The notes beneath the pieces were generated by a model. That model had not been told where the DNA came from. It was given only the letters and a program-made list of their open reading frames with translations, and ran no database searches. Shown in pieces: positions 47,881 to 64,000 of a DNA stretch of 64,000 nucleotides. How positions within the stretch are numbered: the first letter of the stretch is position 1; each line of letters starts with the position of its first letter. This stretch comes from Dehalococcoidia bacterium UBA2979 (GTDB taxonomy: Bacteria > Chloroflexota > Dehalococcoidia > UBA2979): contig DEAP01000041.1 of the NCBI GenBank assembly GCA_002348225.1, positions 5,047 to 69,046 on the forward strand. Direction: 5' to 3'. Both the position numbers and the translations under genes were made by a program.

Positions 47881-47925
47881 AAAGGAGCATCTCTACGGAG
47901 ATGCTCCTTTCTTTATGCTATTTTA
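47881..47925 (+). terminator. Rho-independent terminator after the SBP gene.
   Basis: It is a perfect 13-bp stem AAAGGAGCATCTC-TACG-GAGATGCTCCTTT followed by a T-rich tract (CTTTATGCTATTTTATT). The ORF-track ATG at 47901 lies inside the stem. Confidence 0.7.
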
Positions 47926-61653: not shown

Positions 61654-62798
61654 TAGTTTGCTCCAATATTGGAAAGCAGCATGGTTGCATGTGTAGTCAT
61701 TATTCCTCCCTGTTGACTCACAAGGCCCACTTGTGCACCCTCTACCTGCCGATTTTCACACTCACCACGTAGTTGTCGCACAGCTTCTACCACCAATTGT
61801 GTCCCGGGCATGCCAGTCTCTGAAAGCAGCCCCCCCGACGTATTGCAGGGCAGTTCGCCTCCTAGATGAGTTCGTTTCTCTTCATAGAACGAGCCTCCCT
61901 CACCCTTTTTTACGAATCCATATTCCTCTAGGCTTATCAAAGGAACAATAGTGAAGCAGTCATAAATTTCGCAAAAATCGACATCGTCCGTCGTCATCTG
62001 TGCTGAATCGAAGGCCATCTTACCTGCTATTGCTGCCCCACTTGTAGCTAGTTCAGGACGCCTAAAGAAGTCCCATGATGGATGCCCTTGACCTATGCCC
62101 TCTATGTAAATTGGCTCCTTATTCAGTTCTTTTGCGTTTTCTTCCGTTGTGATGATGTAAGCTGCGCCTCCGTCTGAGACCGGACAACAATCCAACAATC
62201 GAAAAGGCTCCGCTACCCATCGTGATGCAAGGTAATCTTCTAGCGTGAATAATTCTTGGAATTGAGCTCCTGGATTCATACTTGCGTGAGTCCGATGAGC
62301 TATTGCCACGTTTGCTAATTGTTCGGGTGTTGTCCCGTATTCATACATGTGTCTTTTGGCGACCATTGCATAGCTTGAGGGGGCACCGAATAGCCCCGCG
62401 AGAGCATCCTCTCCTCGTGGTCTGGCATATGAAGCTCGGGTACCAGTTCTAGGATTGTCTCCATACGAAATAGCAATATATTCTGCCTGCCCAAGCTCTA
62501 TCGCACTGACAGCGTACTGGATCAGTCCGATATTGCTAGCTCCAGCCTGATCTATTGTGCCAGTGACCTTTGGCTGGACTCGCAGAGCTTCAGCTATCTT
62601 CGGTCCCCAAAGCATGGGAAAGGTGGATGTAGGAGCCTTAGTGAGAATACCATCGAGCTGTTTGGCTTCGAGTCCAGCATCTTCTAGAGCTGATCGAATG
62701 GCTAGGATGTTGTGAGCCACCTGCGAAACTCCAGGGTTTTTCCCATAGGCAGTATTGCCGACTCCGACGATACAGTATCTGTTTCTGAGATTTTTCAT
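61653..62798 (-). CDS. Thiolase-like protein (SCP2/nonspecific lipid-transfer-protein-type thiolase).
   Basis: It has the thiolase fold with conserved Cys/His regions (VGNTAYGK...; GQGHPSWDF). It has the typical DUF35 partner gene downstream. Confidence 0.85.
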   Translation of the reverse strand: MKNLRNRYCIVGVGNTAYGKNPGVSQVAHNILAIRSALEDAGLEAKQLDGILTKAPTSTFPMLWGPKIAEALRVQPKVTGTIDQAGASNIGLIQYAVSAIELGQAEYIAISYGDNPRTGTRASYARPRGEDALAGLFGAPSSYAMVAKRHMYEYGTTPEQLANVAIAHRTHASMNPGAQFQELFTLEDYLASRWVAEPFRLLDCCPVSDGGAAYIITTEENAKELNKEPIYIEGIGQGHPSWDFFRRPELATSGAAIAGKMAFDSAQMTTDDVDFCEIYDCFTIVPLISLEEYGFVKKGEGGSFYEEKRTHLGGELPCNTSGGLLSETGMPGTQLVVEAVRQLRGECENRQVEGAQVGLVSQQGGIMTTHATMLLSNIGAN

Positions 62799-62939
62799 CG
62801 TTCGGCACCCCCAAAGAAGTAGAATAACTTTAATTATTTGTTCTAACGCCGAACTATAACAGAAAGACGCGATGAAATAAAAATTATCTAGCTAATAAAT
62901 CCCGACCGAATATTGAGGCCTTCAAATTGTTTATCAGCT

Positions 62940-63059
62940 ATGATATCTGGCAGTACGAGAATTAGTTTCGAGGACACCTTGAAGAAGATCTGTTTACTTT
63001 CACTTCTCGCTTTGTCGCTACGGCGGCCCTCCGTCGCTTAAATGCGATTGGGAGGGCCT
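62940..63059 (+). promoter_or_regulatory. Leu-rich leader peptide (MISGSTRISFEDTLKKICLLSLLALSLRRPSVA) with an overlapping terminator-like hairpin: candidate leu attenuator.
   Basis: It is a 33-codon ORF with 6 Leu in 9 codons (tta ctt tca ctt ctc gct ttg tcg cta). Its stop codon TAA (63039..63041) lies inside an 8-bp GC stem GGCCCTCC...GGAGGGCC (63024..63059) followed by TGTTTC. It sits 40 nt upstream of leuA and divergent from the thiolase operon. Confidence 0.4.
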
Positions 63060-63100
63060 GTTTCACCTAATACTATCTAAATTATTGAGAGAAAAATGAA

Positions 63101-64000
63101 ATGAATGACGACAAAGTTTATATTTTTGATACGACACTTCGAGATGGAGAGCAGTCTGCCGGAATAGCCTTTACTCGAGAGGACAAAATAGAGATAGCTA
63201 AGCAGTTAGCCAAACTCAATGTAGATATCATCGAGGCGGGCTTCCCCGCTACATCACCAGGAGATCTTGACGCAGTTGCGAGTATTGCTCGTGAGGTTAA
63301 AGGTCCGGTAATTGCAGGTTTGGCTCGTGCAGTGCCAGATGACATTGATGCCGCTTGGGAAGCATTGAAGGATGCTGAATCTCCTCGTATTCATGTCTTT
63401 TTGTCTACCAGCGATATCCATATGGCTCATCAGTTACGAAAGAATAGAGAAGATATTATTGAGATGGCACGGGCTGGGGTTGCACAAGCCAAAGGCTACG
63501 TATCCGACGTGGAGTTTTCGCCAATGGATGCGTCTCGTTCAGATACAGATTTTGTCTATCAGATTTTAGAGGCAGCAATTGAAGAGGGTGCCACCACGAT
63601 CAACATACCGGATACCGTGGGGTATGCAATTCCTGAGGAATTCACTGCATTTATTCAATCTATCTACGACAATGTAGCCAATATTCACAAAGCACGAATT
63701 TCAGTGCATTGCCATAACGATCTTGGGATGGCAACTGCCAATTCAATTGCTGGAGTTCTCGGTGGAGCGCGACAAGTTGAAGGTGCCATTAATGGTATTG
63801 GCGAGCGAGCAGGTAACACTTCAATTGAAGAGGTAATTATGTCGATTGCCACCCGCAGTGATTTGATGAATGTGTATACCGATGTGAACCATGTGGAACT
63901 CTATCCAGCCTCTAAGCTGGTTGAGCGACTTTCAGGGATGCAAGTACAAAACAACAAAGCGATCGTTGGTCGAAATGCATTTCGCCACTCGTCGGGTATT
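63101..64000 (+). CDS. leuA: 2-isopropylmalate synthase (3' partial at the window end).
   Basis: The N-terminus [20 protein letters not shown] and the [13 protein letters not shown] motif are canonical LeuA. The ORF is open to the window end. Confidence 0.92.

What the first reader, a model, noticed from the sequence alone, without database searches (positions are those of the whole stretch)
62940..63059. Leu-rich leader peptide with a stop codon embedded in a GC hairpin immediately upstream of leuA
A 33-codon ORF (MISGSTRISFEDTLKKICLLSLLALSLRRPSVA) has six Leu among nine consecutive codons. Its stop lies within the loop of an 8-bp stem (GGCCCTCC/GGAGGGCC) that ends about 40 nt before the leuA start. 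This is the classic layout of ribosome-mediated leucine attenuation, normally described in Proteobacteria. Its occurrence here, in what gene content suggests is a non-proteobacterial marine lineage, would be notable.
Basis: seen in the sequence. Interest (0 to 1): 0.55.

Follow-up and report, generated by a model that had tools for sequence, protein, structure and literature searches.

The report
Leucine-rich leader ORF before leuA
A short reading frame packed with leucine codons ends at the tip of a very stable RNA hairpin just upstream of the leucine-biosynthesis gene leuA; it is conserved in related uncultured Chloroflexota, so it is probably a ribosome-based leucine sensor, but it is not the classic terminator type.

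Summary
The ORF, the run of six Leu in nine codons, the 8-bp GGCCCTCC/GGAGGGCC stem and the TAA in its loop are all where stated. The stem ends 42 nt before leuA, whose ATG is at 63101.

The element recurs upstream of leuA in 11 Dehalococcoidia-type sequences (9 lineages, LeuA 74-100% identical, 44-69% GC), in two different gene contexts. These features are conserved:
- an invariant outer stem and a covarying inner stem;
- Leu codons at positions -2 and -4 before the stem (10/11), with synonymous codon changes;
- an in-frame UAA, UAG or UGA in the apical loop (9/11);
- a 42-50 nt spacer to leuA (9/11).

None of 130 chance copies of the same hairpin pattern combined these features.

The conserved leader is probably 20 codons long, starting at TTG 62979 behind a GAGG, not at ATG 62940.

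The classic-attenuator reading fails. No lineage has a U-tract, I found no antiterminator pairing, and there is no Rfam match.

My best model is translational attenuation. The Leu-codon tract pairs with the leuA translation-initiation region, the hairpin acts as a clamp, and a ribosome stalled on Leu codons unmasks leuA. Folding predictions support this in most lineages but not all, and statistical support is modest. I class it as a new variant of a known kind, closest to the actinobacterial LEU element and the mycobacterial Cys sORF attenuators.

The parts
62939..62944 (+). -10-like hexamer TATGAT (TATAGT at the aligned position in the 90-91% relatives).
   Evidence: Alignment. This is inference only: no transcription-start data, and the sigma-70 scan did not call a full -35/-10 pair here.
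62940..63041 (+). Its 5' part (62940-62978) is not conserved.
   Evidence: In L081, L085 and L215 the frame is open only from 9 nt before the TTG start.
62970..62973 (+). Shine-Dalgarno-like GAGG of the leader ORF, 5 nt before TTG.
   Evidence: Invariant columns G181-G184. The same GAGG, 5-nt spacer and TTG are present in L081, L085 and L215.
62979..63041 (+). Conserved leader ORF: 20 codons plus stop, MKKICLLSLLALSLRRPSVA* (TTG start). The relatives have a 20-codon MKIRLLSLLLPLSLQRPSVA*.
   Evidence: Eight synonymous and seven non-synonymous codon differences separate the window from L081 (read from the sequences), and Leu content is kept.
62994..63020 (+). Leu-codon tract: TTA, CTT, (TCA), CTT, CTC, (GCT), TTG, (TCG), CTA. 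This is the presumed sensor, where ribosomes stall when charged tRNA-Leu is scarce.
   Evidence: frame-specific Leu enrichment; Leu at -2 and -4 in 10/11 sequences. (0/130 chance hairpins have this).
63009..63016 (+). P1 5' strand, GCUUUGUC (leader codons Ala-Leu-Ser). It is predicted to pair with leuA codons 4-6.
   Evidence: 8 bp; pair probability 0.97 for seven of the eight pairs..
63025..63058 (+). P2, the conserved hairpin. Outer stem GGCCCUCC/GGAGGGCC, inner stem GUCGC/GCGAU, loop UUAAAU containing the leader stop codon (63039-63041).
   Evidence: The outer stem is invariant and the inner stem covaries (12 double-change cells, 0/500 shuffles reach this). Model R1 finds it only upstream of leuA.
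63060..63065 (+). P3 5' strand, GUUUCA. It is predicted to pair with UGAAAU 63097-63102, covering the first two bases of the leuA AUG.
   Evidence: 6 bp, pair probability about 0.57.
63087..63103 (+). leuA ribosome-binding site: GAGAG (63087-91) and ATG (63101-63103).
   Evidence: An in-frame TGA at 63086-88 excludes an N-terminal extension.
63110..63117 (+). P1 3' strand, GACAAAGU, inside the leuA initiation region (+10 to +17).
63101..64000 (+). leuA (2-isopropylmalate synthase), cut by the end of the window. leuC and leuD follow in relatives.

Best explanation
The element is a leucine-responsive, ribosome-mediated leader for leuA (leuACD in relatives). It most likely acts on translation initiation rather than by intrinsic termination.

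Proposed mechanism, with each step marked:
- A 20-codon upstream ORF (TTG 62979 to TAA 63041) is translated. This is inferred from the conserved SD and start, the conserved frame, synonymous Leu changes and stop placement.
- In the free mRNA the Leu-codon tract pairs with the leuA translation-initiation region. In the window this is helix P1 (63009-16 with 63110-17), plus helix P3 (63060-65 with 63097-102), which covers the AUG. This step is predicted.
- The very stable hairpin P2 (63025-58) clamps this into a three-way junction, so leuA initiation is masked. This is inferred.
- When charged tRNA-Leu is scarce, a ribosome stalls on the Leu codons, occupies the 5' strand of P1 and frees the leuA start region. 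This is inferred.
- When leucine is plentiful, the ribosome runs on, opens the left arm, terminates at the loop-apex stop codon without entering the right arm or the spacer, and the masking structure re-forms. This is inferred.

Shown here: the anatomy, its conservation, the frame-specific Leu enrichment and the hairpin covariation. Everything about the regulatory output is predicted, not shown.
For: Conservation:
- The element is present upstream of leuA in 11 sequences from 9 lineages, in two genomic contexts: a divergent thiolase gene upstream, or ilvBNC upstream.
- These span 44-69% GC.

Translation of the leader:
- Leu counts in the 12 codons before the stem are 2-8 in frame 0 and 0-2 in the other two frames.
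- Leu sits at -2 and -4 in 10/11, encoded by varying codons (TTG/CTG/CTC at -4; CTA/CTT/CTG at -2).
- The in-frame stop in the apical loop (9/11) uses all three stop codons.
- GAGG, a 5-nt spacer and TTG, with a 20-codon length, are conserved between the window and its 90-91% relatives despite heavy nucleotide divergence.
- Control: among 130 chance hairpins with the same arms, Leu at both -2 and -4 occurs in 0 and a stop in the gap in 15.

Structure:
- 89.8% of hairpin cells are paired, and the covariation exceeds all 500 shuffles and all slid registers.
- The spacer is 42-50 nt in 9/11.

Masking:
- In ensemble folds the main partner of the leuA RBS is the 48 nt preceding the stem in 8/11 (pair-probability share 0.24-0.69).
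- A ribosome modelled on the Leu codons lowers the opening energy of the leuA initiation region in 9/11 (window 8.7 to 5.8-6.4 kcal/mol). A ribosome at the stop codon lowers it by less than a Leu-codon stall in most lineages and in several not at all.
- Against dinucleotide-shuffled leaders the unmasking effect has p about 0.06 in the window and <0.0125 in L085 and L216. My Fisher combination gives about 0.01.

Precedent:
- The actinobacterial LEU element pairs a Leu-codon run with the leuA SD (PMC1262725).
- Ribosomes stalled on mycobacterial poly-Cys sORFs unmask the downstream RBS, shown by mutation (bioRxiv 10.1101/834739).
Against: - The masking is not universal. L086, L094 and L220 show little or no predicted unmasking.
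- With a narrower definition of the RBS (-14 to +3 or -16 to +6), the window shows none.
- Any CU-rich leader pairs with a purine-rich RBS, so much of the complementarity is compositional. By dinucleotide shuffles the duplex test gave p = 0.01-0.05 only in L093, L216 and L217, and the RBS opening-energy test was significant only in L085 and L216.
- P1 uses different registers in different lineages, so no strict covariation could be scored.
- The model does not explain why the outer stem is sequence-invariant (SD-like GGGAGGG against anti-SD-like CCCUCC).
- It does not explain why the stop sits exactly at the loop apex, or why Leu is fixed at -2 and -4.
- L092 and L094 lack the loop stop.
- For the Streptomyces LEU element, Seliverstov et al. 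cite evidence that mutating the Leu codons did not change regulation (PMC1262725).
- There are no expression, transcription-start or ribosome-profiling data for this organism.
Confidence: 0.45

Rival explanations
1. Classic transcription attenuation. The GC hairpin is an intrinsic terminator whose formation is prevented when a ribosome stalls on the Leu codons next to it.
For: - There is a Leu-rich leader directly before a biosynthetic gene, with a very stable hairpin (-24.1 kcal/mol).
- In the window the stem is followed by UGUUUCA, and the AT-rich relatives have a U6 run 9 nt downstream.
- A ribosome with Leu(-2) in the A site would reach about 6 nt into the left arm (geometry, inference).
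- The clearest terminator-like hairpin elsewhere in the window (47881-47910) also has a poor U-tract, so this organism's terminators may be atypical.
Against: - GC-rich relatives have 0-2 T in the 10 nt after the stem, although the hairpin is conserved there.
- The terminator scan finds nothing.
- No antiterminator partner was found for either arm.
- The leader stop lies in the loop, so a ribosome that completes the leader under leucine plenty would itself melt the 'terminator'. That gives the wrong regulatory sign unless release is faster than RNA polymerase escape.
- There is no Rfam Leu_leader match.
Confidence: 0.12
2. The ribosome's position is read out in some other way through the hairpin itself. 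One version: a ribosome stalled at Leu(-2) melts the outer stem and exposes the SD-like GGGAGGG as a standby 30S loading site. Another version: the stalled ribosome blocks Rho loading, as in tnaC.
For: - The outer stem is sequence-invariant, with anti-SD-like and SD-like arms, across 44-69% GC.
- Leu is fixed at exactly -2 and -4.
- The stop sits at the loop apex and the spacer length is conserved at 42-50 nt.
- The masking model does not explain these features. They suggest that geometry relative to the hairpin matters.
Against: - No start codon lies 3-14 nt after GGGAGGG in any lineage.
- The spacers show no C>G skew typical of rut sites.
- A 30S subunit binding next to a stalled 70S is sterically doubtful (inference).
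- There is no known precedent for the standby version in amino-acid control.
Confidence: 0.2
3. The hairpin is mainly a binding site for a protein or another trans-acting factor, as was proposed for the actinobacterial LEU element. On this view the Leu-rich frame is secondary, or a by-product of a pyrimidine-rich strand.
For: - Strict sequence conservation of the outer stem goes beyond what pairing requires.
- Seliverstov et al. reached this view for the LEU element, partly because Leu-codon mutations reportedly had no effect (PMC1262725).
Against: - A pyrimidine-rich strand does not explain the frame-specific Leu enrichment, the synonymous Leu changes, the conserved SD and start, or a loop stop that uses all three stop codons.
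- No candidate factor was identified.
Confidence: 0.12
4. It is a chance ORF and hairpin, or a generic repeat, or the terminator of an upstream gene, with no dedicated function.
For: Short ORFs and hairpins are common in intergenic DNA.
Against: - The hairpin is unique in the window.
- It is conserved only upstream of leuA, in two different gene contexts.
- Its features are absent from 130 chance copies of the same hairpin pattern.
- In the window the upstream gene is divergent, so the hairpin cannot be that gene's terminator.
Confidence: 0.02

Closest known systems
LEU element upstream of leuA in Actinobacteria (Seliverstov et al. 2005, PMC1262725; Streptomyces lividans leuL1, PMC8079986)
   Same: - An upstream ORF with a run of Leu codons lies directly before leuA.
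- There is no typical Rho-independent terminator.
- The Leu-codon tract is proposed to pair with the leuA ribosome-binding region, forming a base stem around an internal structure.
   Different: - The LEU element is described as a pseudoknot or alternative hairpin. Here there is one long hairpin with a 3-6 nt loop, and I found no pseudoknot.
- The invariant GGCCCUCC/GGAGGGCC stem and the stop codon at the loop apex are not described for the LEU element.
- The phylum differs (Chloroflexota).
- Sequence homology could not be tested because no LEU element sequences or Rfam model were available.
Poly-Cys short-ORF translational attenuators of mycobacteria (Canestrari et al., bioRxiv 10.1101/834739)
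   Same: Ribosomes stalled on a tract of cognate codons prevent an mRNA duplex that otherwise sequesters the RBS of the downstream biosynthetic gene. No terminator is involved.
   Different: - Those sORFs are leaderless and sense cysteine. This leader has an SD and a TTG start and is Leu-rich.
- Here a separate, conserved GC hairpin sits between the sensor tract and the masked site.
- The mycobacterial mechanism was shown by mutagenesis. This one is only predicted.
Classic leu operon leader of Proteobacteria (Rfam RF00512) and other ribosome-mediated transcription attenuators (trp, his, thr)
   Same: - A leader peptide is rich in the end-product amino acid.
- The stop codon lies in a hairpin loop, as in the 1:2 hairpin of the trp leader (my own knowledge).
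   Different: - There is no U-tract terminator and no mutually exclusive antiterminator.
- There is no Rfam match.
- The Leu codons lie just 5' of the stem, not inside it.
ermC / cat-86 translational attenuation
   Same: A ribosome stalled in a short leader ORF remodels the mRNA structure to expose the initiation region of the downstream gene.
   Different: - In those systems an antibiotic and the nascent peptide cause the stall, not a hungry codon.
- In cat-86 the hairpin's right arm is the SD of the regulated gene. Here the SD-like right arm is 42-50 nt from the leuA start and has no start codon behind it.
T-box leaders upstream of leuA (Geobacter, Pelobacter) and in Dehalococcoides (PMC2494555)
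   Same: RNA-level control of amino-acid genes, including leuA, in non-Firmicutes. Chloroflexi are known to use T-boxes for ileS and trp genes.
   Different: There is no T-box match in the window even at E<=10. This element depends on a translated ORF rather than on tRNA binding.

Membership tests
Classic ribosome-mediated transcription attenuator (Leu leader type) | A leader ORF with a cluster of codons for the end-product amino acid, upstream of the biosynthetic gene. | tested here: met
   6 Leu in 9 codons. The enrichment is frame-specific and conserved.
Classic ribosome-mediated transcription attenuator (Leu leader type) | An intrinsic terminator (GC-rich hairpin followed by a U-tract) between the leader and the gene. 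| tested here: not met
   The hairpin is present but no lineage has a U-tract (0-5 T in the 10 nt after the stem, tracking genome composition). The scan finds no terminator.
Classic ribosome-mediated transcription attenuator (Leu leader type) | A mutually exclusive antiterminator pairing that uses one arm of the terminator. | tested here: not met
   Free and ribosome-constrained folds of 7 lineages show no conserved alternative partner for either arm.
Classic ribosome-mediated transcription attenuator (Leu leader type) | Similarity to the curated Leu_leader covariance model. | tested here: not met
   cmscan of 62600-63300 at E<=10 returns only two spurious hits.
Actinobacterial LEU element | An upstream ORF with a Leu-codon run before leuA, without a canonical terminator. 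| tested here: met
   The feature is as described in PMC1262725 and PMC8079986.
Actinobacterial LEU element | A base stem formed by the Leu-codon run and the leuA Shine-Dalgarno region. | tested here: inconclusive
   - Predicted in 8/11 lineages.
- In the window the tract pairs with +10 to +17 of leuA, and a spacer segment covers the AUG.
- Significance against shuffles is modest and uneven.
Actinobacterial LEU element | A conserved pseudoknot, or an alternative two-helix structure, inside the base stem. | tested here: not met
   A single continuous hairpin with a 3-6 nt loop is conserved. The loop is too short for pseudoknot pairing.
Actinobacterial LEU element | Sequence or structure homology to actinobacterial examples. 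| not testable with these tools
Translational attenuator by ribosome stalling on a cognate-codon sORF (mycobacterial Cys type) | A duplex between the codon tract and the downstream gene's initiation region, relieved by a ribosome on the tract. | tested here: inconclusive
   Modelled unmasking occurs in 9/11 (window 8.7 to about 6 kcal/mol). Against shuffled leaders, p is about 0.06 in the window and about 0.01 combined. There is no effect in L086, L094 or L220.
Translational attenuator by ribosome stalling on a cognate-codon sORF (mycobacterial Cys type) | A leaderless sORF at the 5' end of the transcript. | tested here: not met
   The leader has GAGG, a 5-nt spacer and TTG in the AT-rich lineages. 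In the GC-rich lineages it lies inside an ilvBNC-leuA operon.
Translational attenuator by ribosome stalling on a cognate-codon sORF (mycobacterial Cys type) | Amino-acid-dependent expression of the downstream gene. | not testable with these tools
   This needs reporter or proteomic experiments.
T-box riboswitch | Specifier loop, T-box sequence and a match to the Rfam model. | tested here: not met
   No hit at E<=10.

The most novel reading that the evidence does not exclude
The invariant hairpin, with its anti-SD-like arm inside the leader ORF, SD-like arm outside it and the stop codon exactly at the apex, may itself be the actuator of a leucine attenuator that works by a mechanism not yet described. 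One possibility is that a ribosome stalled at the fixed Leu(-2)/Leu(-4) positions peels open the outer stem and exposes GGGAGGG as a standby ribosome-loading site for leuA. That would make it a distinct class of ribosome-sensing leader in Chloroflexota, not a variant of SD masking.
Probability: 0.2. Interest if true: 0.7.

Novelty: new variant of a known kind. Interest (0 to 1): 0.45.

Why it matters
Leader-peptide control of amino-acid genes has been worked out almost entirely in Proteobacteria and, more recently, in Actinobacteria. This would extend ribosome-mediated leucine sensing to uncultured Dehalococcoidia-class Chloroflexota.

It also offers a compact, well-defined architecture of about 140 nt: sensor tract, clamp hairpin and masked start site. 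That is small enough to test in a heterologous host.

Three conserved features have no ready explanation: the invariant SD/anti-SD-like stem, the stop at the loop apex and the fixed Leu positions. They could inform how terminator-less attenuators, including the still unresolved actinobacterial LEU element, actually work.

In practical terms, the element is an unannotated cis-regulatory motif and small ORF that could be added to annotation models for these MAG-only lineages.

Tried and rejected
- Rfam scan of the region at a permissive threshold: no T-box, Leu leader or other family.
- Canonical terminator and promoter scan: nothing at the element. Terminator-like sites in the last 20 kb of the window are not enriched over shuffles.
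- Search for an antiterminator or 'segment 3' by free and ribosome-constrained folding: none found.
- Right arm GGGAGGG as a real SD: no ATG, GTG or TTG lies 3-14 nt downstream in any lineage. In-frame stops exclude an N-terminal leuA extension in the AT-rich lineages.
- Repeated element (REP-like): the hairpin is unique in the window.
- Rho rut signature: the spacers show no C>G skew.
- Genome-contig scan with LeuA: it was saturated by the generic HCHNDLGM pattern and returned only relatives of 63% identity or less. These lack the element by regex and by covariance model R1.
I reused them as a negative control.
- Other amino-acid-run leaders among those chance hairpins: none.
- Strict covariation for the long-range helix P1: not possible, because the pairing register differs between lineages.
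- Narrow-window SD-masking tests gave no effect for the window itself. An effect appears only when the whole initiation region (-18 to +16) and +45 nt of coding context are included.

Full report
**1. The observation**

- ATG 62940 opens a 33-codon frame, MISGSTRISFEDTLKKICLLSLLALSLRRPSVA, ending at TAA 63039-63041.
- Six of nine consecutive codons are Leu: TTA 62994, CTT 62997, CTT 63003, CTC 63006, TTG 63012 and CTA 63018.
- GGCCCTCC (63025-32) pairs perfectly with GGAGGGCC (63051-58). An inner helix GUCGC/GCGAU extends the stem and leaves a 6-nt loop, UUAAAU, that holds the stop codon.
- The hairpin alone folds at -24.1 kcal/mol.
- The stem ends 42 nt before leuA, whose ATG is at 63101. An in-frame TGA at 63086-88 rules out an earlier start.
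- The full-length protein that is 100% identical over the window's 299 residues passes two NCBIfam equivalog cut-offs for 2-isopropylmalate synthase.

This is not chance.
- The hairpin pattern occurs once in the window and never in 100 shuffles.
- Only 2 of 1010 six-frame ORFs of at least 20 aa reach 6 Leu in 9 codons.
- Region 63009-63117 folds with z = -4.8.

**2. Organism and relatives**

The closest LeuA proteins (74-100% identity) come from MAGs that NCBI names Dehalococcoidia or Chloroflexi bacterium. The window is 47.7% GC.

I fetched contigs for eleven LeuA relatives. One of these look-ups returned no DNA.
- The 90-91% relatives (L081-L085, L215) share the window's context: a divergent thiolase / DUF35 / acyl-CoA dehydrogenase cluster, then leuA-leuC-leuD.
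- The 74-81% relatives (L086, L092, L093, L094, L216, L217, L220; 66-69% GC) have ilvB-ilvN-ilvC upstream on the same strand.
- All of these carry the element 42-116 nt before leuA.
- One AT-rich lineage at 75% identity (L218) has only 24 nt between ilvC and leuA and lacks it.
- Eighty more distant leuA loci (63% identity or less, many phyla) also lack it, both by pattern and by a covariance model built from the hairpin.

**3. What is conserved**

(a) The outer stem (C)GGCCCUCC/GGGAGGGC(C) is essentially invariant across 44-69% GC. The inner stem differs in every lineage and covaries: UCGC/GCGA, UUGC/GCAA, UCCUC/GGGGA, UCCGCC/GGCGGA, GCCGCCG/CGGCGGC. Overall 89.8% of cells are paired, with 12 double-change cells. 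No shuffle and no slid register reaches the observed covariation score.

(b) In the frame that reads the left arm as Arg-Pro-Ser, the preceding 12 codons hold 2-8 Leu, against 0-2 in the other two frames. Leu occupies positions -2 and -4 in 10 of 11 sequences, encoded by different codons.

(c) The frame ends with a stop in the apical loop in 9 of 11 sequences. UAA, UAG and UGA are used in five different loop sequences.

(d) The spacer from stem to leuA start is 42-50 nt in 9 of 11.

(e) Between the window and its 90-91% relatives the leader keeps GAGG, a 5-nt spacer, TTG and exactly 20 codons (MKKICLLSLLALSLRRPSVA against MKIRLLSLLLPLSLQRPSVA). There are eight synonymous and seven non-synonymous codon differences (counted from the sequences). 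Leu content is selected for, not peptide sequence, which is the pattern expected of a sensor leader.

In the relatives the frame is closed just upstream of the TTG. ATG 62940 also overlaps a conserved -10-like hexamer, TATGAT in the window and TATAGT in the relatives. Treating that hexamer as a promoter element is inference only.

My wasted metagenome scan supplied a useful negative control. It returned 130 chance occurrences of CGGCCCTCC-N6-36-GGGAGGG, none near leuA. Among them, Leu at both -2 and -4 occurs 0 times, mean Leu per 12 codons is 0.74, and an in-frame stop in the gap occurs 15 times.

**4. What it is not**

- It is not a known RNA family: there is no Rfam hit at E<=10, including the T-box and Leu_leader models.
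- It is not a canonical intrinsic terminator. No U-tract follows the stem in any lineage and the scan finds none.
- No alternative (antiterminator) partner for either arm appears in free or ribosome-constrained folds.
- The SD-like right arm has no start codon behind it.
- The hairpin is not a repeat.
- It cannot be the terminator of an upstream gene, because in the window that gene is divergent.
- The spacers carry no C-over-G bias suggestive of a Rho loading site.
- The regulatory logic also argues against a terminator. Because the stop lies in the loop, a ribosome that finishes the leader under leucine plenty would itself open the hairpin.

**5. How it most likely works**

The logic 'Leu starvation switches leuA on' needs the stalled ribosome to remove something repressive. 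The only RNA a ribosome on the Leu codons covers is the pyrimidine-rich tract itself.

In the window the minimum-energy fold is a three-way junction:
- P1: 63009-16 GCUUUGUC with 63110-17 GACAAAGU, leuA codons 4-6 (pair probability 0.97).
- P2: the conserved hairpin.
- P3: 63060-65 GUUUCA with 63097-102 UGAAAU, covering the AUG (pair probability about 0.57).

In the relatives the same tract pairs with the SD and start region in other registers. Examples are CUUCAG:CUGAAG in L081 and GCCUCGUGCUUCC:GGAAGGCACGAGGC in L216. In 8 of 11 sequences it is the main ensemble partner of the RBS.

I modelled a ribosome footprint (12 nt 5' of the P-site codon to 15-16 nt 3' of its first base).
- Placed on the Leu codons, it lowers the opening energy of the leuA initiation region (-18 to +16) in 9 of 11 sequences: window 8.7 to 5.8-6.4, L085 13.5 to 3-4, L216 25.3 to 14-17 kcal/mol.
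- Placed at the stop codon, it lowers it by less than a Leu-codon stall in most lineages, and in several not at all.
- Against dinucleotide-shuffled leaders the effect has p about 0.06 in the window, <0.0125 in L085 and L216, and is absent in L086, L094 and L220. My Fisher combination gives about 0.01.

This is the mechanism shown by mutagenesis for mycobacterial poly-Cys sORFs (bioRxiv 10.1101/834739). It also matches the 'base stem of Leu codons and leuA SD' described for the actinobacterial LEU element (PMC1262725).

In this model the hairpin is a clamp that brings the two strands of P1 together. The loop stop keeps translating ribosomes out of the right arm and the spacer.

**6. Caveats**

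- Narrower definitions of the RBS gave no effect in the window.
- CU-rich sequences mask purine-rich RBSs almost regardless of order.
- P1 could not be tested by strict covariation.
- The model leaves several conserved features unexplained: the invariant SD/anti-SD-like arms, the apex stop and the fixed Leu(-2)/Leu(-4) positions. These hint that the ribosome's geometry relative to the hairpin matters, so I keep a sizeable rival in which the hairpin itself is the actuator.
- L092 and L094 lack the loop stop. In L092 the frame runs on to an ATGA overlap with leuA.

**7. Comparison and novelty**

Leu-rich leaders before leuA without terminators are known in Actinobacteria (PMC1262725, PMC8079986). 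Classic Leu leaders are known in Proteobacteria. T-boxes precede leuA in some Deltaproteobacteria, and ileS and trp genes in Dehalococcoides (PMC2494555).

My full-text searches found no description of a Leu leader in Chloroflexi.

The element fails the defining tests of the classic attenuator (terminator, antiterminator, Rfam model). It also lacks the LEU element's pseudoknot. I therefore do not file it in either family. It works most like the LEU element and Cys-sORF type.

**Verdict**

This is a real, conserved cis-regulatory leader and a new variant of a known kind. Interest is moderate.

Noticed in passing
L092:1753-2004: In this GC-rich relative the leader frame has no stop in the hairpin loop. 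It runs through the hairpin and spacer and ends in a TGA overlapping the leuA ATG (ATGA). That layout suggests termination-reinitiation coupling rather than a separate leader.
   Followed up: partly
L216:496-1434: The gene caller fuses the leader frame to a 312-aa ORF with no Pfam hit, inserted between ilvC and leuA. Its last residues (…ALAGLGLVLPQPSSA*) are the leader peptide, and its stop is the loop-apex TGA. It is unclear whether the long ORF is real.
   Followed up: no
L010:60-110: Upstream of leuA in an Acidimicrobiaceae (Actinobacteria) MAG there is a UCUCCC…GGGAGA hairpin whose loop also contains a TGA, in frame with a short ORF. There is no Leu run. It might be a distant analogue or a coincidence.
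   Followed up: no
L006:2950-3000: In a more distant Dehalococcoidia genome a CCCUC…GAGG hairpin appears to sequester the leuA Shine-Dalgarno sequence directly, without any Leu-rich ORF. L003 (Thermoflexus) has a CCCUCUCCC/GGGAGAGGG hairpin about 30 nt before leuA.
   Followed up: no
L218:1477-1500: An AT-rich relative whose LeuA is 75% identical, and which is seen on many contigs, has only 24 nt between ilvC and leuA and no leader. The element is therefore lineage-specific and dispensable.
   Followed up: partly
window:47881-47910: A perfect 13-bp hairpin (AAAGGAGCATCTC…GAGATGCTCCTTT) lies between two co-directional genes and is followed by only a weak T-run. Intrinsic terminators in this organism may have poor U-tracts. 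Terminator-like sites in the last 20 kb of the window are not enriched over shuffles.
   Followed up: no
window:62920-62930 and 62974-62984: An inverted repeat, CTTCAAATTGT / ACACCTTGAAG (82% complementary), spans the TTG start of the leader ORF. It could occlude leader initiation if the left arm is transcribed.
   Followed up: no
window:59619-62798 (minus strand): The divergent neighbours are an acyl-CoA dehydrogenase, a 141-aa protein, a DUF35/ChsH2-type OB-fold protein and a thiolase-like protein. The same cluster flanks leuA in the 91% relatives. All other relatives have ilvBNC there, so a rearrangement moved the leader and leuACD away from ilvBNC in this lineage.
   Followed up: partly
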